Of a stretch of DNA of 42,177 nt, positions 50-42,177 are shown piece by piece. The notes beneath the pieces were generated by a model, which was not told the origin of the DNA, ran no database searches, and was given only the letters and a program-made list of their open reading frames with translations. The stretch's first letter is position 1; every line of letters starts with the position of its first letter. Made by a program: the position numbers and the translations under genes. The DNA is from a virus: UHGV virus genome UHGV-0135963. One strand, 5' to 3'.

Positions 50-2782
50 TCAGGTCTTTCTTATTAACCATGCTTCCAGAGCGGCAACACTGCGTGTAAT
101 TTCTTCGTGTGGAAGGGGGGCAGATAATGGCTGCTGCTCCAGTTGTGCGCATAGCTGGCTGGCGCTACGCATTCCCAGACTCGAGCAACTGCTTTTTAGC
201 TGATGCGCGGCACGCTTTATTTTCTCGCTATCCTCACTGGCGCGGGCAATGTCGATGTCATCGAGAAGCGGCAGGGCATGTTGTGTAAATAATACCAGCC
301 ATTCGTGGATCTTCTCCGTCCCCATTAACTGAGCATCTTCATTGAGTTGCGATACATCCAGCGGTTGTTCGTTATTAGCTGGCAGTTGGAGATAGTGCGC
401 CAGTAACTGACCGAGCACTTCACGCGGCACCGGTTTAGGGATAATCCCGCGAAATAGCGAACTGGTACGCTGGCGCAACGTTTCGTCGATGACATGGGCG
501 CTAAAGCCAATCAAAACCAGCGACGGATATTGCTGTGCCAGTTGTCGGGCAAGCGTAATGCCGTCGATATCCGGTAGATCAAAATCCACCAGTGCGGCAG
601 CAAACGGTTCGCTATTTTGCAGTGCCTCTAAAGCCTGCGCGGCATTGCCAACAGCAACGACCTGCGCACCACTGTTGTTCAGCATCTCAACGGTAATTCG
701 CTGGGTTAGCGGGTTATCTTCAATTAACAGCAAACGTAAACCGTGCAGACACACCGCCTGATTGACTGTTTTTGGCACGGGGGCAGTGGCAACACGTAAC
801 GGCAAGCGTAAACAAAAACAGCTTCCAACCTCCGGTGTGCTGGTGGCGCTCAGTTCGCCGCCCATCGCCTGGGCCAGACGGCTACTGATAGTCAGCCCCA
901 GCCCGGTGCCGCCGCGTTTGCCGCTAACCTGAACAAATGGCTGGAAGATTTCAGCCAGTTTCGTGGGATCAATACCGCAGCCGCTGTCTTCCACTTCGAC
1001 CAGCCATTGTTCGCCATCAGTGCGACTACGCAGGATAATGTGCCCTTCGTCGGTGAAACGCAGAGCGTTGCTCAACAGGTTGGTAATGACCTGACGAATA
1101 CGCCGCGGATCGCCCATTAACGCAGTCGGTACATCGTCGGCAATTTCTGTTGCCAGGTGAATCGGGCGACCTTTCACCCGTCCGCTCATTAATTGCAGGG
1201 TACTTTCCAGCAGCGGGCGCGGTTCAAAGGGTTCATCGCTGACCGAAACATTCTTGCCGCCTGCTTCGATAGCCGAATAATCGAGAATATCGTTGAGGAT
1301 GGTCAGCAACGATTCACCAGAGTCAGTAATTGCGCGCAAATCATCGCGCTGGGCGTTAAGTGCGGGGTTATCTGCCAGCAGCTGTGCGGTGCCGAGAATA
1401 CCGTACAGCGGTGTGCGGATCTCATGGCTCATCGCCGCCAGAAACGCCGATTTTGCCTGGCTGGCTTTTTCTGCTTCCGCCCGTGCCTGTCGGTGTTCTA
1501 TCACCAGTTCCTGCAATTCAGCTGTACGCGCTTTGACCTGTGCCGCCAGCTGTTCGCGGTGGCGATTCAGTGCATGAACACTGCTGCGAAACGCATCCAT
1601 CAGCCGCCCGATGGTGTCCAGCTCCCGCACGCCAGCGGTTTCCGGAAAAGGGGAGTCGATATCACCGTCCAGTAAGCGTTGCAGCGCCTGCGTTTGTTCG
1701 GCAAGTGGACGCGTGACTGAGCGATAAACCACGCGCCAGAGGATCAGAATCAGTGCGCAAAGTGAAACCATCCCCAGCAATAACAGGCTGTACTGCCCGC
1801 GTGCACTGGCTTTTTCCAGATGCGCCAGACCGTGCTGATTACGCAGCTCAATGGTGTCGACCAGTTGACTGACTTCGCTACTAAACTGCGCGAACTGGGC
1901 GATGTTATTTTGCGTGAGAGTTTGCAGGCGATGACTGATTTCACTGTCCTGCTGATACAGCGCCAGCAAATCGCTATATTGGCTAACGGAAGTTAACGTT
2001 GTTGCAACCTGAGCACGAACTCCCGGATCTTCAATGCGTATTTGCCGACGTTGCAGAATTTTCACCGCATTATTGAGCTGCTTTTCCAGCGTTGGCGCAT
2101 TTTTCTGGATCTGTTCCAGCCCCAGATTCATCACCATTTGCTGCACCCGCAGGGCGCTAAGGCGCAGTTCATTCATCTGGTTAACATACTCAAGATCGAT
2201 ATCAATCAGCCGATCGAGTGCACTTTCTGCGGCCTGACGCTGATGTTGTTCGATCAAATCGTAAATCCCGGCCTGGGTCGCTCCGGCGGAGGTTGCCGCA
2301 TTATTCGCCTGACCTTGCGCCAGGCGTGCGATCTCATCGGCGGCGGCGACTATCTGCTGACTGAGTCGCTGTTGTTGCTGGCGCAGTTGCAAACGCTGCC
2401 CCACCAGTTCCCCTTGCTGACGTAACGAACGGGAGATCTCCTGCTCCTGTTGTTCAATAGCGGTGGTATCAAAACCTTGTTCCCGTAACGCTTGCAGCAA
2501 CGCATTAATCTTCAGGCTTTGTGCGGTGAGCATTCGCCCCTGCGCCTGCCACATCTTTTCGTTATCGGCACTGGTCAGGTTCTGCGCGGCGAAAAGTTCC
2601 CAGGCGCTGGCTTCGCTCAACTGGCGCGCCATATTCATGGTAGGAATCAATGCCTGAGTGTTGTCTTTTTCCACCTGGCTGATAAAGCGCAGGTTGTACC
2701 ATCCCACCAGGGTACTGGTCAGGGTTAACAGCGCCATCAGGGCAAAGCCCATCCAGAGTCTTCGGGTCAGGGTTAAATTCAC
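50..2782 (-). CDS. torS: TMAO-responsive hybrid sensor histidine kinase TorS (host gene)
   Basis: 910-aa ORF. N-terminal TM/periplasmic region, H-box (SHEIRTPL), HATPase G-boxes, receiver domain (LLLIEDNPL...DFDLPDIDG) and C-terminal HPt domain. N-terminus [19 protein letters not shown] matches my memory of E. coli TorS. Confidence 0.93.
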
Positions 2783-2789
2783 GGTCGGT

Positions 2790-2880
2790 GCACTTAAGGT
2801 GAATAAGTTGTATATTTAAAATATCTTTTGTTATCAATGAATTAATGTAAGCAGGTCATTATTAGTCAAAATAAAATCAT
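2790..2880. other. attL (B-O-P') attachment junction with Int arm-type sites
   Basis: Sequence upstream of the int stop (caggtcattattagtcaaaataaaatcatttgtcgatttcaattttgtccca) closely parallels the lambda attP P' arm with three arm-type repeats (AGGTCATTAT, TAGTCAAAAT, AAATCATTTG). The core is probably near ggtgaataagttgta (about 2800..2815). Exact core boundary not determined. Confidence 0.6.
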
Positions 2881-3950
2881 TTGTCGATTTCAATTTTGTC
2901 CCATTCCCGTCCACGGCTGTCCCTATACCGCGCCGCCATTGAATCTGATTTATGCCCGAGAAGACGTTGAGCAAACTTATCGCCAATCTGGTTCCGGTAT
3001 AGCCTCGCTGACAGGCTACGCAGTTCATGGAATGTTGGCGGGTTTCCATCAAATGAGAGTCCAGATGCATTTCTCGCCTTTGTAAAATACTTTGATACTG
3101 TTTTCGGGGAAAGCGGATCGTGATGCTTTGATGCGATTATAGTTTCACTGCTGCTGGCCTCCCTGCATTTCTGTAGTGTATCAGCCAATGAGATATTGAG
3201 CGCGTCAATCGTTAGCGTTAGCGGAATGGCGAGTTTAGCCCCTGTTTTACTCTGTTCAATGTGAAGATGGTTGTCGTTTATGTCTGACCATTTCATTCTG
3301 CACAAATCGCCGACTCTCTGCCCTGTAACGACGGCCAAATCCATCGCCAGCCTTAGCCAGATAGGGAGAGGTTCGGCTGCATGGTAAATCTCGACATACT
3401 CATTAGCTGTCAGCCTTGAGCGCCTTACTTCTGACTTTGCTGTACGGGTTGCTGTTACCGGATTCGTTGCCACATGCCCCTCGGCTATTGCTTCACGAAA
3501 AACGTCAACAAGGGTTGACCTGATTAATTTTGCGGAAGCTGCTTTACCTTCCGCTACGTAGGTGTTTAGCATTGCTGCCACATCTTTCGTTGATATGTCA
3601 GTGAGCGGTTTGTCCGGCAATTTTCTTCGGATTGCCCTGATTTTGCTGGCGTAGTCGAGTAGAGTTTTCGGCCTGATCCCCCTTTCGGTGAGGATTCTTT
3701 CATATCGGTCAAGCCACACATGAAGAGTGATTGCGTCACCGCCTTTAATTCTGTCTATCAGTGATTTGCGTCCGCTGTCTGAGAGTAACTCAATATTGGC
3801 CTGTATTGCTTCAGTGATTGCTATCCTCCTGTCTCGGCCTAATCCAAACTCTTTACCCGTCCTTGGGTCCCTGTAGCAGTAATATCCATTGTTTCTTATA
3901 TAAAGGTTAGGGGGTAAATCCCGGCGCTCATGACTTCGCCTTCTTCCCAT
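2877..3950 (-). CDS. int: Tyrosine integrase, lambda Int family
   Basis: 357 aa; N-terminus MGRRRSHERRDLPPNLYIRNNGYYCYRDPRTGKEFGLGRDRRIA is near-identical to lambda Int as I recall it. C-terminal catalytic region (HELRSLSARLY) conserved. Stop overlaps the P' arm. Confidence 0.93.
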   Translation of the reverse strand: MGRRRSHERRDLPPNLYIRNNGYYCYRDPRTGKEFGLGRDRRIAITEAIQANIELLSDSGRKSLIDRIKGGDAITLHVWLDRYERILTERGIRPKTLLDYASKIRAIRRKLPDKPLTDISTKDVAAMLNTYVAEGKAASAKLIRSTLVDVFREAIAEGHVATNPVTATRTAKSEVRRSRLTANEYVEIYHAAEPLPIWLRLAMDLAVVTGQRVGDLCRMKWSDINDNHLHIEQSKTGAKLAIPLTLTIDALNISLADTLQKCREASSSETIIASKHHDPLSPKTVSKYFTKARNASGLSFDGNPPTFHELRSLSARLYRNQIGDKFAQRLLGHKSDSMAARYRDSRGREWDKIEIDK

Positions 3951-36840: not shown

Positions 36841-37260
36841 TTATTTGTATGAAATCAACGAGTTAAGCTCCCTCTCATTTAGAGATTGGAATCTTTTTTC
36901 AGTTATATCAATGATGGTTGGCAATAGTTTTTTTACCTTCTCATGACCATCAGGTTTAATGATAGCAATGATCTGGATATGAATTGGATATGTGTTGTGT
37001 ACCGCAAATATCAAAAAGTTATCGCTAACTCTACGATGTATTGGCGTTGTTTTTAACCAAGGATCATCTACTCCAGGGATCCTGATGTGCGACTTGTAAA
37101 TTCCCGATAAGACGGCGTGATGGTTTCTCTCAAACCCACCAATCTTACCAAGATAAGCTGAAACGGTGCCTCTGTTTTTGTAGTTTGCAAGAGCCTTCGC
37201 AAAGTATTGTTCTAATGGTCCAGCCGCTGCATCTACAACAATGCTTATGCGGTTTTCCAT
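36841..37260 (-). CDS. YafO-like toxin-domain protein (139 aa); second gene of accessory cassette
   Basis: C-terminal region FLIFAVHNTYPIHIQIIAIIKPDGHEK resembles the YafO core (HLVYC...AWLLIAILKPEPHK) as I recall it. Needs profile search. Confidence 0.55.
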   Translation of the reverse strand: MENRISIVVDAAAGPLEQYFAKALANYKNRGTVSAYLGKIGGFERNHHAVLSGIYKSHIRIPGVDDPWLKTTPIHRRVSDNFLIFAVHNTYPIHIQIIAIIKPDGHEKVKKLLPTIIDITEKRFQSLNERELNSLISYK

Positions 37261-38924: not shown

Positions 38925-39848
38925 ATGAAAAGTATAGCAACAGCAGTATCTACTATCAATGTGCCATTCCACGGCGCAGAGCTTTATGTTGTCAATCACA
39001 ACGGCGAACCGTACACCCCAATGAAACCTATCGTTGAGGGAATGGGGCTAGACTGGAAATCTCAACATAAGAAGATTTCTCAACGCTTCTCGAAGGGTAT
39101 GGTGGAAATCACCATACCTTCTGCCGGTGGGGTGCAAGCCATGATTTGTATGGCTTTACGAAAATTGGCAGCTTGGTTGAACAGCATCAGTCCTAACAAA
39201 GTCCGCCCTGAAATCCGCGACAAGGTAATCCAGTATCAGGAAGAGTGTGACGATGTGCTCTACGAGTACTGGACTAAAGGCCATGTAGTTAACCCACGCA
39301 AAGCTAAAAAGGCGTTGCCGGGTAAAATCACCACTGAACAGCAGGAAGCCATTAAACAACTCGTCATGAGTCGCGGTCAGTCTCTGCCAAAAGAAAAACA
39401 GGCTAAGGCGATGATCACCATGTGGTCGTCACTGAAATCCCATTTTGGATGTTCGTACAAAGAAATCAGTGAGGAGCAGTTTACCGAAGCACTGTCACTT
39501 GCAGCTCGAGTTCCACTTGAAGGTGAGTTCATCGGCAAACAAGAGAAGAAAACCAACGAGCTTTCTGCAAAAGAAGCAAACAGCCTTGTATGGCTATGGG
39601 ACTATGCCAACCGCTCACAGGCATTATTCCGCGAATTGTATCCGGCGCTAAAACAAATTCAATCGAACTATTCCGGCAGATGTCATGACTGCGGTTATGA
39701 GTTCTCCCGTATTATCGATATGGCGAGAGATGTTTTAATCAATCACACACGAGATGTTGATATCAATGAGCCAGACGGACCAACGAATCTTTCCGCATGG
39801 ATGAGACTTAAGAATAAAGAATTACCTCCTTCAGTACATAACTACTGA
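38925..39848 (+). CDS. ant: Antirepressor (Ant-like)
   Basis: 307 aa, in the ant position of the immI arrangement (mnt / arc / ant). N-terminal AntA-like region. Family assignment from position and general resemblance only. Confidence 0.65.
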   Translation: MKSIATAVSTINVPFHGAELYVVNHNGEPYTPMKPIVEGMGLDWKSQHKKISQRFSKGMVEITIPSAGGVQAMICMALRKLAAWLNSISPNKVRPEIRDKVIQYQEECDDVLYEYWTKGHVVNPRKAKKALPGKITTEQQEAIKQLVMSRGQSLPKEKQAKAMITMWSSLKSHFGCSYKEISEEQFTEALSLAARVPLEGEFIGKQEKKTNELSAKEANSLVWLWDYANRSQALFRELYPALKQIQSNYSGRCHDCGYEFSRIIDMARDVLINHTRDVDINEPDGPTNLSAWMRLKNKELPPSVHNY

Positions 39849-39866
39849 CAGATAACCAACGCAACG

Positions 39867-39890
39867 ACCCAGCTTCGGCTGGGTTTTTTT
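39867..39890 (+). terminator. Intrinsic terminator after ant
   Basis: acccagc ttcg gctgggt followed by tttttttat. Confidence 0.7.
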
Positions 39891-40026
39891 ATGCCCAAAA
39901 TTCACCGCAGCAACTAAGCGGCGATGGCCTTGATGGATAGCACTACACAAAAAGTGTAGTGCAAAAAGCAAACAAATACTCACCGTAGCTACGCTGCGGC
40001 GATTCATTGTATCTGGAGCAAATTAA

Positions 40027-42177
40027 ATGACAGACATTACAGCCAATGTGATCGTATCGATGCCTTCGCAACTCTTCACTATGGCGCGTTCTTTTAAAGC
40101 CGTAGCCAATGGCAAAATTTATATCGGTAAAATTGACACTGATCCTGTAAATACAGAAAACCAGATTCAGGTCTATGTGGAGAATGAAGACGGTTCTCAC
40201 GTTCCTGTTTCGCAACCAATAATCATTAACGCTGCTGGATATCCGGTATATAACGGACAGATTGCCAAATTCGTTACCGTGCAAGGCCATTCTATGGCTG
40301 TTTATGATGCGTATGGTGCGCAGCAGTTCTATTTTCCTAATGTGCTGAAGTATGACCCTGATCAACTACGGCAGCAATTAGAAGACCCGGATGGAGCTAA
40401 AAAATATCCTGAATTGCAGATATCTCGGTGGAGGGACGATTGTGATGTAAGAGGGTGGGGGGCAAAAGGCGATGGTATAACAGATGATACATCTGCATTG
40501 ATCTTGGCTGCAGAATATGCACGAGAATCATCCAAAACATTACGAGCGGAAGGTAATTTTATTATTACGGAGACATTAAATCTTCGTAATGTCAGCCTCG
40601 AAATGACCAATGCTGTTTTTACCATATCCCACTCAGGAATAGGGGTATTGCTTGGCGGGGATGCATCAAACCCTAACAACCCAAGACAAAACTTCGGAAC
40701 GATTATCAGAAATTCTGGTATTTCATCTGAAACGACACCGGATATTCGTATTATTGGGGCAAAAGGGCAGCATATAAACATTGAGCGTTGCGACTACTTA
40801 CAGTTATATGCAAATTATAATGCTTCGGTGGCATCGACGGATTATTCAATAGCATACTCAACCTTTAACCTGAAAAAGGTCGATACAATTCATTTTCTTG
40901 GAGTTGAGAACGGATGGATAAATGAAAACTATTTTTATCTGAATCGTACGAATAATATCATTTTCGCTGATAATCCATATCATCATAACCACAATAAGTT
41001 TTATGGTGGAACTATGGAGGGGGCAGGTAAAATTGATATTCAAAGAGGTGATAACAATTACTTCTACGGGTTTCGTTTTGAACGATATCCATCATCCCCA
41101 ACTAACCAACAGTTGATAATTAACTTTGGTGAATATACGTGGAATAACTCAATTGAGGCTTCATGGTTAAGTTCTCCTTACTATACAAATGAACCATACA
41201 ATCCATCACCTTACACTTATGTAGAGGTAACTGATAATGGCAAGGGGAATGCAGTATTTCATGTTCAGGAAAATATATCCGATGAAGTAACATTGTTTTC
41301 TTTAAATGCTAACACCCCATTTATATCCAGTGCCAACAATGGAGAAGTTGGTGCATTAGCATATCAAACAGATGTAGATGGTTTATATAATATCCGTCAC
41401 CTAGTTTCTTCTAAGTTTGCTTTTATGCGGAATTTTGGGTTGTTATGGGAATCTGGAGATGTACCAGTAAGAAATGGTGATATGTTTACATTCTCAGCAG
41501 ATACGGCATCGTTTCGCATTTACCTGTATGCATTAGATGGAGATGGGAATGTCATAACTTCACAAACAGAAGCAATAACTTCTTCTATGCAATGGGATTC
41601 ATCTAACCATAGATATGCTACTGTTGCTAACATTTCTTCCATTAAGATCAGGATTAATAATGAAGGGGTTCCAGTTAGTGCAATTCGTTTAGCTGTGTAT
41701 TCTGGTGGTAATGTAGCGAATACTGCATTTTCATGGCTATGCTTAACTGGTAGATATTACAAAAATAGCACATCCTTGCCAAGGAAAAGCAAAGATAACT
41801 TCACCTTAAAACAAGGAAAAGCAATTACTTATTATAGTGATACTGATATTAGTATGGCTAACATTGGTTCAGGAATTACCTGTTATAAAACCGATTTATC
41901 TGAAATCAAAATTAATCTTGTAAGGGGCAGGTATGTAGTGAAATCAATTTCAGGCAGTGAAATATATGTATACCAAGGAACAGTCACTTATTACCCTCCA
42001 TTCAGTGATGTCAAATTGGTATATACGGATGGGGTTGAAAATAAATTATTAGATGTGCAAAACATCTCTTCAGGAAAGATTACTCTTGCAGATACAGTAC
42101 CATCAGCTATATCTGCAGGTGATTTTGTAGATGTTATTGTTACGAAGACGAAGTCTATTTTATCCAGTGCGCCGTAA
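40027..42177 (+). CDS. Tailspike protein (P22-type N-terminal head-binding domain plus divergent receptor-binding domain)
   Basis: 716 aa. N-terminus [58 protein letters not shown] matches the P22 gp9 head-binding domain. Remainder is an AT-rich, Asn/Ser/Tyr-rich beta-rich domain. Stop codon is the last 3 nt of the window. Confidence 0.9.

What the first reader, a model, noticed from the sequence alone, without database searches (positions are those of the whole stretch)
40027..42177. Tailspike with conserved head-binding domain and a divergent, AT-rich receptor-binding domain
The first approximately 115 residues match the P22 gp9 head-binding domain closely, then the sequence diverges completely into an Asn/Ser/Tyr/Thr-rich, AT-rich region typical of a swapped beta-helix receptor-binding module. 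Host-range specificity is probably set by this horizontally exchanged domain; it may be HK620-like but I cannot confirm from memory.
Basis: partly seen in the sequence, partly recalled or inferred. Interest (0 to 1): 0.4.

Follow-up and report, generated by a model that had tools for sequence, protein, structure and literature searches.

The report
Prophage tailspike for chondroitin-type (K4-like) capsules
This is the tailspike of a P22-like E. coli prophage: a standard virion-attachment domain fused to an uncharacterised sugar-cutting module that is found almost only in strains with chondroitin-type (K4 and K4-like) capsules, so it most likely recognises and degrades that capsule.

Summary
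ORF 40027..42177 encodes a 716-aa tailspike. Residues 1-113 are a P22-type head-binding domain: 75% identical to P22 gp9, 91% to Sf6 gp14, 100% to CUS-3. The rest is AT-rich (37% vs 47% GC), Asn/Ser/Thr/Tyr-rich and unrelated to P22, Sf6, HK620 or CUS-3 receptor domains, so the "HK620-like" guess is not supported. The junction is a shared neck (aa 114-158), not a single point. The receptor module is a right-handed beta-helix plus about 300 aa of beta-sandwich domains with no solved relative. It occurs behind at least four different N-terminal adaptors. Its only experimentally tested relative is Pasteurella phage PHB02 Dep-ORF8 (34% identity), a capsule-type-A depolymerase. In 5,426 complete E. 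coli genomes, 15 carry this module. All 15 have a group 2 capsule locus although their O-antigen loci differ. Thirteen have a KfoC (chondroitin polymerase) capsule locus, against 53 of 5,411 other genomes (p about 4e-24). Best reading: a capsule-specific depolymerase for chondroitin-backbone K antigens, a K4-type counterpart of CUS-3. It is a new member of a known kind. The substrate and the chemistry (lyase or hydrolase) are inferred, not shown.

The parts
40027..42177 (+). Tailspike gene, 716 aa plus stop; last gene of the prophage arm in the window
   Evidence: ORF list and translation. 96-99.5% identical genes are annotated 'phage head-binding domain-containing protein' in 11 E. coli genomes.
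40027..40365 (+). Head-binding (virion attachment) domain, aa 1-113
   Evidence: PF09008 1-113/113, E=1.8e-66. Sf6 gp14 7sg7 and P22 gp9 PDB hits cover aa 1-118. 75% identity to P22, 91% to Sf6. 100% identity to CUS-3.
40366..40500 (+). Neck/linker plus beta-helix cap motif (aa 114-158; [40 protein letters not shown]). This is the shared recombination junction.
   Evidence: CUS-3 similarity runs to aa 158, PF18668-type relatives join at aa 114, and the 771-aa type joins at aa 134. 9vvr_A and many E. coli phage spikes match only this stretch. The A1 profile hits the PDB only through this motif.
40501..41271 (+). Right-handed parallel beta-helix, the presumed catalytic domain (aa ~159-415). Family-invariant residues: Y277, W297, E300, R307, Y318, E331, R350, E352. 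Near-invariant: K246, H320, H322, D403.
41272..42174 (+). C-terminal beta-sandwich/barrel domains (aa 416-716), a sub-module of the RBD. Exchange points lie near aa 415 and aa 594.
39849..40026 (+). ant-tailspike intergenic 'boundary sequence': ant terminator hairpin, a 78-nt insertion (39901..39978), then ~48 nt conserved immediately upstream of the start codon in all relatives
   Evidence: Alignment with CUS-3 (where it is annotated bsq1), PS_131_S11 and 100117.

Best explanation
The gene encodes the tailspike of a P22-like (Lederbergvirus-type) prophage integrated between torS and torT. Residues 1-113 dock the trimeric spike onto the tail hub, as in P22, Sf6 and CUS-3. A short neck (aa 114-158) joins this to an exchangeable receptor module. 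The module is a right-handed beta-helix (aa ~159-415) that most likely carries a polysaccharide-cleaving site lined by invariant Glu, Arg, Tyr and His residues, followed by two or more beta-sandwich domains (aa 416-716). I infer that the module binds and depolymerises a group 2 capsule with a chondroitin-type backbone, made by KfoC-family polymerases (canonical K4 and two K4-like loci). This would let the virion tunnel through the capsule to the outer membrane. On this reading it is the K4-type counterpart of the K1-specific prophage CUS-3, with which it shares an identical attachment domain. Shown: domain identity, fold, modular exchange, and the host-capsule association. Inferred: the substrate, that the module cleaves rather than only binds, and the catalytic residues. 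Whether it is a lyase or a hydrolase is unresolved.
Against: No biochemical data exist for this protein. The closest tested relative is only 34% identical, was called a 'putative' depolymerase, and was assayed only by spot clearing. Its substrate (type A capsule = hyaluronan, from my own knowledge) differs from chondroitin at the hexosamine C4. Two RBD hosts lack any kfoC: W46 has a glycerol-phosphate-type region 2 and S87 is untyped. The association is not phylogenetically corrected and several hosts are clonal (100117/100248). For 23CRST013, PEC011 and fS10a the second gene is inferred from 'places per record' counts, not listed coordinates. The same RBD type occurs with three locus variants that probably differ in side groups (fructose, possibly pyruvate), so tolerance of substitutions has to be assumed. 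Fold neighbours mix hydrolases, lyases and epimerases, and no known catalytic motif was identified.
Confidence: 0.6

Rival explanations
1. It is an O-antigen-specific endoglycosidase like the P22, Sf6 and HK620 tailspikes. The receptor is the LPS O-chain and the capsule association is incidental.
For: Most characterised P22-like tailspikes read O-antigen (established knowledge). Three RBD hosts (E200086, 100117, 100248) share an O-antigen cluster present in only 13 of 5,426 genomes, with the prophage at two different att sites.
Against: RBDs 96-99.5% identical occur in hosts with unrelated O loci: the rare Rha/ManNAc type, the O17/O44/O73/O77/O106 family (only PS_131_S11) and O166:H15. There is no sequence similarity to any O-antigen tailspike RBD. 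The closest tested relative is capsule-dependent.
Confidence: 0.1
2. The link to KfoC-type capsules is a lineage artefact. The prophage simply circulates in a few clones that happen to have these loci, and the true receptor is some other surface structure.
For: Hosts are few (15) and partly clonal. No phylogenetic correction was possible. Two hosts lack kfoC.
Against: Hosts span three kfoC alleles with different locus architectures, at least three O types, two att sites (torS-torT and argW) and two phage backbones. They come from human, dog and prawn sources in Bangladesh, Mali, Gambia, Japan, Sweden and China. A second, diverged RBD variant is again found only in KfoC+ genomes. W46's region 1 proteins are identical to those of an allele B strain, consistent with a later region 2 switch.
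Confidence: 0.15
3. The module binds its glycan but is catalytically inactive: a lectin-like fibre rather than a depolymerase.
For: No catalytic motif of a known CAZy family could be assigned. The family profile matches solved enzymes only in the N-terminal cap.
Against: Acidic, basic and aromatic residues are invariant over 45 sequences down to 22% identity and recur at roughly one-rung intervals: Y277, E300, R307, Y318, E331, R350, E352. The PHB02 homologue produces clearing zones as a purified protein. The fold is shared with active depolymerases.
Confidence: 0.1

Closest known systems
CUS-3 endosialidase tailspike (K1-specific P22-like prophage of E. coli RS218/UTI89)
   Same: Same phage type and gene position (after ant). 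The upstream boundary sequence is conserved. The protein is 100% identical over aa 1-120 and similar to aa 158. It is also a temperate phage whose spike targets the group 2 capsule of its own host lineage.
   Different: After aa 158 the proteins are unrelated. CUS-3 carries an endosialidase specific for polysialic acid. This one carries a pectin-lyase-fold beta-helix with different C-terminal domains, and it associates with KfoC-type rather than K1 loci.
Pasteurella phage PHB02 gp17 = Dep-ORF8 (also Pmp1, Pa7, ZA29, F108 fibres and P. multocida prophage proteins)
   Same: Homologous across the whole receptor module, beta-helix and C-terminal domains (aa 133-711; 34% identity). It is the only relative with experimental data, showing capsule-dependent clearing. 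Its host capsule is also a glycosaminoglycan-type polymer (hyaluronan; my own knowledge).
   Different: It has a T7-like N-terminal adaptor (360 aa) instead of the P22 head-binding domain, a different host genus, and low identity. Its chemistry is uncharacterised.
P22 gp9 / Sf6 gp14 / HK620 gp9 tailspikes
   Same: Head-binding domain (75-91% identity) and the overall plan of attachment domain, neck, beta-helix and C-terminal domain.
   Different: Their receptor domains are O-antigen endoglycosidases with no detectable sequence similarity to this one.
Coliphage K5A lyase KflA (2x3h) and chondroitinase B (1dbg)
   Different: Only 11-15% identity, no shared motif was found, and the similarity is no better than to many hydrolases. 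A lyase mechanism is therefore not established.

Membership tests
P22-type tailspike (gp9 family, PF09008 head-binding domain) | N-terminal head-binding domain matching PF09008 over its full length | tested here: met
   aa 1-113 vs profile 1-113, E=1.8e-66, 222 bits against a cut-off of 24. PDB hits to Sf6 and P22 N-termini.
P22-type tailspike (gp9 family, PF09008 head-binding domain) | Encoded at the end of the late/immI arm of a P22-like genome, downstream of ant | tested here: met
   ant (P22_AR_N/C) lies at 38925..39848, with Arc/Mnt-like ORFs and ejection-protein-sized ORFs upstream. The window matches Sf101, CUS-3 and other P22-like phages.
P22-type tailspike (gp9 family, PF09008 head-binding domain) | Homotrimer bound to the gp4/gp10 tail hub | not testable with these tools
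   Only a monomer was modelled. Inferred from 91-100% identity of the domain to Sf6 and CUS-3.
Pectin-lyase-fold (right-handed parallel beta-helix) phage depolymerases | Right-handed parallel beta-helix core | tested here: met
Pectin-lyase-fold (right-handed parallel beta-helix) phage depolymerases | Pfam PF12708 (Pect-lyase_RHGA_epim) signature | tested here: inconclusive
   Not reported for the window protein. Sub-threshold in close relatives (18-21 bits against a cut-off of 27), above threshold in distant relatives P0038 and P0044 (49 and 34 bits).
Pectin-lyase-fold (right-handed parallel beta-helix) phage depolymerases | Demonstrated glycan cleavage and identified catalytic residues | not testable with these tools
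   Only conservation is available: E300, E331, E352, R307, R350, Y277, Y318, H320.
PHB02 Dep-ORF8-like capsule depolymerase family (phrog_18162-type RBD) | Homology over the complete receptor module, beta-helix plus C-terminal domains | tested here: met
   tblastn 30-34% identity over 97% of the RBD, E~1e-69 to 1e-71. Local alignment aa 133-711 vs 361-967. phrog_18162 covers aa 135-712, 1018 bits.
PHB02 Dep-ORF8-like capsule depolymerase family (phrog_18162-type RBD) | Capsule-dependent activity | not testable with these tools
   Indirect only: 15 of 15 hosts are kpsE+ and 13 of 15 are KfoC+.
HK620-type tailspike receptor domain | Sequence similarity of the receptor domain to HK620 gp9 | tested here: not met
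   The HK620 DNA match ends at nt 335. The HK620 spike is not among the PDB sequence hits for the RBD.
Endosialidase tailspikes (CUS-3, K1F; GH58) | Endosialidase catalytic domain | tested here: not met
   Similarity to CUS-3 ends at aa 158. No endosialidase Pfam or PDB hit for the window protein.
PL16 phage hyaluronate lyases (HylP) | Triple-stranded beta-helix catalytic core | tested here: not met

The most novel reading that the evidence does not exclude
The receptor module is the founding E. coli example of an uncharacterised family of phage enzymes that degrade glycosaminoglycan-type capsules (chondroitin/K4 in E. coli, hyaluronan in Pasteurella). The family is built on a single-chain beta-helix unrelated to the known phage hyaluronate lyases (PL16) or K5 lyase. 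Both the capsule polymerase (the KfoC/Pasteurella synthase family) and the phage module that targets it are AT-rich imports shared between Pasteurellaceae and E. coli, so receptor and anti-receptor may have moved between the two lineages in parallel.
Probability: 0.4. Interest if true: 0.65.

Novelty: new member of a known kind. Interest (0 to 1): 0.45.

Why it matters
Modular tailspikes are textbook, so the architecture alone is ordinary. The added value is the predicted specificity. I found no phage enzyme for the E. coli K4/chondroitin-type capsule in the searchable literature. This module has no solved relative, and its only tested homologue is a barely characterised Pasteurella phage protein. 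If the prediction holds it gives three things. First, a typing and decapsulation reagent for K4 and K4-like strains, which mimic host chondroitin. Second, a possible new chondroitin- or hyaluronan-cleaving enzyme family of biotechnological interest. Third, a clean second example, beside CUS-3 and K1, of a P22-like prophage matched to its host's group 2 capsule, with the same attachment domain on a different enzymatic head. The composite-query host typing also shows that at least two K4-like loci lacking kfoD/kfoE exist in diarrhoeagenic and ExPEC-type strains.

Tried and rejected
1. HK620-, P22-, Sf6- or CUS-3-like RBD: rejected, no similarity beyond aa 158.
2. O-antigen receptor: tested by locating the O-loci of two hosts and by composite searches. 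Hosts have unrelated O-loci.
3. A lysogenic-conversion gene next to int as a clue to the receptor: the 910-aa ORF at 50..2782 is host torS, not a phage gene.
4. Strict one-to-one co-variation between RBD variant and kfoC allele: I first thought so. It is only partly true, because the main RBD type also occurs with alleles B and C.
7. Literature on the Vectrevirus PDP21 phages (48% identical RBD): nothing found. Naming of the K4-like loci: nothing found. A described K4-specific phage enzyme: none found in the library. One paper search failed on a two-letter term.
8. The 95-aa membrane ORF downstream as an obligatory partner: it follows only the 712-aa variants and is absent from the 716-aa variants like this one.

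Full report
**1. Observation**

The region holds one long ORF, 40027..42177 on the + strand. It encodes 716 aa and its stop codon is the last three bases of the window. The short ORFs on the opposite strand inside it (e.g. 39943..40365, 40362..40781) lie wholly within this gene and have no support.

Pfam's Head_binding model (PF09008) matches residues 1-113 over its entire length (E=1.8e-66). PDB sequence hits are the N-termini of Sf6 gp14 and P22 gp9. Identity is 91% to Sf6 and 75% to P22.

Beyond nt ~330-470, no record in a 50,697-genome phage collection matches the DNA.

- GC is 0.425 in the head-binding part, 0.375 in the beta-helix part and 0.355 in the C-terminal part, against 0.471 for the rest of the prophage.
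- GC3 is 0.287 against 0.473.
- Asn+Ser+Thr+Tyr is 32% against 19% in the other structural proteins.

**2. Context**

The window is chromosomal, not a free phage genome.
- ORF 50..2782 (-) is the host sensor kinase TorS, and 2877..3950 (-) is a lambda-type integrase.
- In near-identical prophages, torT lies just beyond the tailspike. The prophage therefore occupies the torS-torT site, and the window ends exactly at the tailspike stop.
- The rest of the window matches P22-like phages such as Sf101, CUS-3 and phiv205-1 in mosaic fashion.
- Directly upstream are an ant gene (P22_AR_N/C) and Arc/Mnt-like ORFs.
- The ant-tailspike spacer corresponds to the 'bsq1 boundary sequence' annotated in CUS-3. 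About 48 nt immediately upstream of the ATG are conserved even where the upstream gene differs.

**3. Where the module boundary lies**

A 20-aa sliding comparison gave these results:
- The CUS-3 endosialidase tailspike is identical over aa 1-120, 70-83% identical to aa 158, then unrelated.
- E. coli proteins with a PF18668 (Tail_spike_N) N-terminus (P0003, P0008) share the rest of the protein from aa 114 at 91-93%.
- A 771-aa prophage protein with an unannotated N-terminus (E-1246; P0006) shares it from aa 134 at 96-97%.

The junction is therefore a conserved neck (aa 114-158, ending in the GAKGDGxTDDT cap motif). Many otherwise unrelated spikes also carry it.

There are further exchange points inside the receptor module:
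- near aa 260, where P0010 falls from 90-100% to 40-55%;
- near aa 415, where DNA matches H76 and H77 stop at nt 1245;
- near aa 594 (P0009).

**4. What the receptor module is**

AlphaFold2 with a 45-sequence alignment gives pLDDT above 90 for most of aa 140-716. The N-terminal domain is poorly modelled only because most alignment rows lack it.
- A family profile hits solved structures only through the cap motif. The module therefore has no structurally characterised relative.

An exhaustive search of 1.84 billion representatives finds 537 relatives of the beta-helix part. Only about a dozen clusters cover the whole module. Hosts include E. coli, E. marmotae, Aeromonas salmonicida, Pasteurella multocida, [Haemophilus] felis and Chelonobacter. 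N-terminal adaptors include PF09008, PF18668, PF12571 and PF27114.

Residues invariant or nearly so across 45 sequences down to 22% identity are: D153, R187, K246, Y277, W297, E300, R307, Y318, H320, H322, E331, R350, E352 and D403. I take this as a conserved active site or binding groove. I could not decide between a lyase and a hydrolase.

**5. The only experimentally tested relative**

tblastn finds the tail fibres of Pasteurella multocida phages (PHB02, Pmp1, Pa7, ZA29, F108) aligned over 97% of the module at about 31% identity. A local alignment with PHB02 gp17 gives 34% identity.

PHB02 gp17 is the published 'Dep-ORF8': both cloning primers map to the ends of that gene. In that paper the purified protein produced translucent spots on all 31 capsular type A strains. 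It produced none on capsule-deletion mutants or on types D and F (PMC6090149).

Type A capsule is hyaluronan (my own knowledge; the paper does not say so). A review of hyaluronan-degrading enzymes lists phage enzymes only of the PL16 HylP type, a triple-stranded beta-helix. That fold is different (PMC11669647).

**6. Which receptor in E. coli?**

I used the prophage's hosts as evidence. Fifteen of 5,426 complete E. coli genomes carry the module at 96-99.5% DNA identity.

*O-antigen loci.* Synteny walking located the O-antigen loci of two hosts.
- Strain 100117 has a rare rfbBDAC-wzx-wecB-GT-wzy-GT-GT cluster. Only 13 genomes share it, including hosts 100248 and E200086.
- PS_131_S11, whose spike is 99.5% identical to the window's, has an O17/O44/O73/O77/O106-family cluster.
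- A third host is labelled O166:H15.

*Composite queries.* To type all hosts at once I used composite queries: RBD DNA plus a shorter marker gene. RBD hosts rank first, and the number of places per record shows whether the marker is also present.
- Only PS_131_S11 has the O17-family wzy.
- All 15 hosts gain one place with kpsE, the conserved export gene of group 2 capsules, against 1,709 of 5,426 genomes overall.

*The capsule locus.* The kps locus of PS_131_S11 has a region 2 encoding:
- a GalE-like epimerase;
- a 589-aa protein;
- a 689-aa GT2 that matches crystallised E. coli K4 chondroitin polymerase (2z86) at 75.5% identity over 621 residues;
- a UDP-glucose dehydrogenase;
- a further GT2.

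*The polymerase association.* Composite searches with this polymerase gene show 11 of 15 hosts positive by megablast and 13 of 15 by sensitive blastn. The other genomes give 35 and 53 of 5,411. Fisher p is 6e-21 and 3.8e-24.

Three locus types exist:
- Allele A: the minimal locus above; 9 hosts.
- Allele B: with an added pyruvyl transferase and IS1; hosts EC11 and MS14385.
- Allele C: 2 hosts. Its polymerase is essentially identical to 2z86 (1455 bits over 625 residues). Its gene order (IS3-family element, kfoD/kfoE-like genes) matches what I recall of the canonical K4 locus.

One search lists the polymerase coordinates directly for ten of the hosts. For fS10a, 23CRST013 and PEC011 the evidence is the place count.

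*Supporting observations.*
- A diverged variant of the module (766 aa, P0010 type) occurs in only two genomes, both allele B.
- Two hosts (AST20, PS_131_S11) carry the module twice. In AST20 one copy is on a P22-like spike and one on the other backbone.
- Overall, 15 of 66 KfoC-family genomes carry a prophage with this module family, against 2 of 5,360 others.

*The exceptions.* W46 has a glycerol-phosphate-type region 2. Its region 1 proteins are identical to those of allele B strain N1131, which suggests a later capsule switch. That is an inference. S87 was not examined.

**7. Interpretation**

The most economical reading is that the module recognises, and probably cleaves, the chondroitin-type backbone common to these K antigens. 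That makes this prophage the K4-type analogue of CUS-3, which has the identical attachment domain and a K1-specific endosialidase.

Other details fit. The Pasteurella homologue targets hyaluronan, the C4 epimer of chondroitin at the hexosamine. Both the module (37% GC) and capsule region 2 (33% GC, against 50% for region 1) are AT-rich imports.

Caveats:
- No biochemistry exists for this protein, and its nearest tested relative is distant.
- Hosts are few and partly clonal, with no phylogenetic correction.
- The three locus types probably carry different side groups, so tolerance of substitutions has to be assumed.

I put about 0.97 on 'P22-type tailspike with an exchanged beta-helix receptor module', about 0.6 on 'specific for KfoC-type capsules', and leave lyase versus hydrolase open.

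**8. Comparison, novelty and score**

The architecture is a standard modular tailspike. The head-binding domain passes its family test. HK620-type, endosialidase and PL16 memberships fail. The module belongs with the PHB02 Dep-ORF8 / phrog_18162 family, which is essentially uncharacterised.

I found no described phage enzyme for the K4 capsule in the searchable library. That is absence from this library, not proof of absence.

I rate it a new member of a known kind. The bare finding deserves about 0.3. The predicted chondroitin-capsule specificity and the uncharacterised enzyme family raise it to about 0.45.

Noticed in passing
window 50..2782 (-) and 2877..3950 (-): The first ORF is the host sensor kinase TorS and the next is a lambda-type integrase. 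The window is therefore a chromosomal prophage in the torS-torT site, cut exactly at the tailspike stop. Close relatives sit either there (100117, PS_131_S11) or at argW (E200086, W46).
   Followed up: partly
L004 7174..7461 and L003 7742..8026 (outside the window, just downstream of the homologous spikes): A 95-aa hydrophobic ORF with no Pfam hit follows the 712-aa form of the spike on two unrelated phage backbones. It is identical over its first ~77 aa, and the DNA homology is continuous from the spike gene. It is absent after the 716-aa form found in this window. It may be a cassette partner (conversion or exclusion factor).
   Followed up: partly
window 39901..39978: A 78-nt insertion relative to CUS-3 and strain 100117 lies inside the ant-tailspike boundary sequence. 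It starts with a near-repeat of the conserved TCACCGTAGC motif and contains an inverted repeat (CACTACAC-AAAAA-GTGTAGTG).
   Followed up: no
window 36841..37260 (-): A YafO-family toxin-like ORF (PF13957, E=1e-11) sits in the moron region between the ejection-protein genes and the immI region. A YafO-family toxin is also annotated near the variant spike in N1131 (L015 1094..1639).
   Followed up: no
NZ_AP043617.1 (AST20) 1234624..1236774 and 2867422..2869056; NZ_CP145099.1 (PS_131_S11): Two hosts carry two copies of the same receptor module. In AST20 the copies are on two different prophage backbones. The second copy in PS_131_S11 is inferred only from the place count.
   Followed up: partly
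L013 (PS_131_S11 kps region 2) and L014 (N1131 kps region 2): Two K4-like capsule loci have a KfoC-family polymerase but lack the kfoD/kfoE-like genes of canonical K4 (L019). One has an added pyruvyl transferase. Together they occur in 46 of 5,426 genomes. I could not find names for them, and their polymers may be unsubstituted or differently substituted chondroitin.
   Followed up: partly
L018 (W46, NZ_CP163115.1 4236475..4251806): W46 carries the spike but has a glycerol-phosphate-type region 2. Its KpsF/E/D/U proteins have the same accessions as in allele B strain N1131, which suggests a recent region 2 replacement (capsule switch).
   Followed up: partly
L007 25531..32362 (strain 100117 O-antigen cluster): A rare O-antigen cluster (rfbBDAC, wzx, wecB, GT2, wzy, GT2, GT4) is present in only 13 of 5,426 genomes, three of them spike hosts. 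I did not assign the serogroup.
   Followed up: no
window aa ~260, ~415, ~594 of the spike (nt ~40805, ~41271, ~41808): There are internal mosaic breakpoints within the receptor module itself. P0010 decays after aa 260, H76 and H77 stop at nt 1245, and P0009 diverges after aa 594. Sub-domains therefore appear to be shuffled as well as the whole module.
   Followed up: partly
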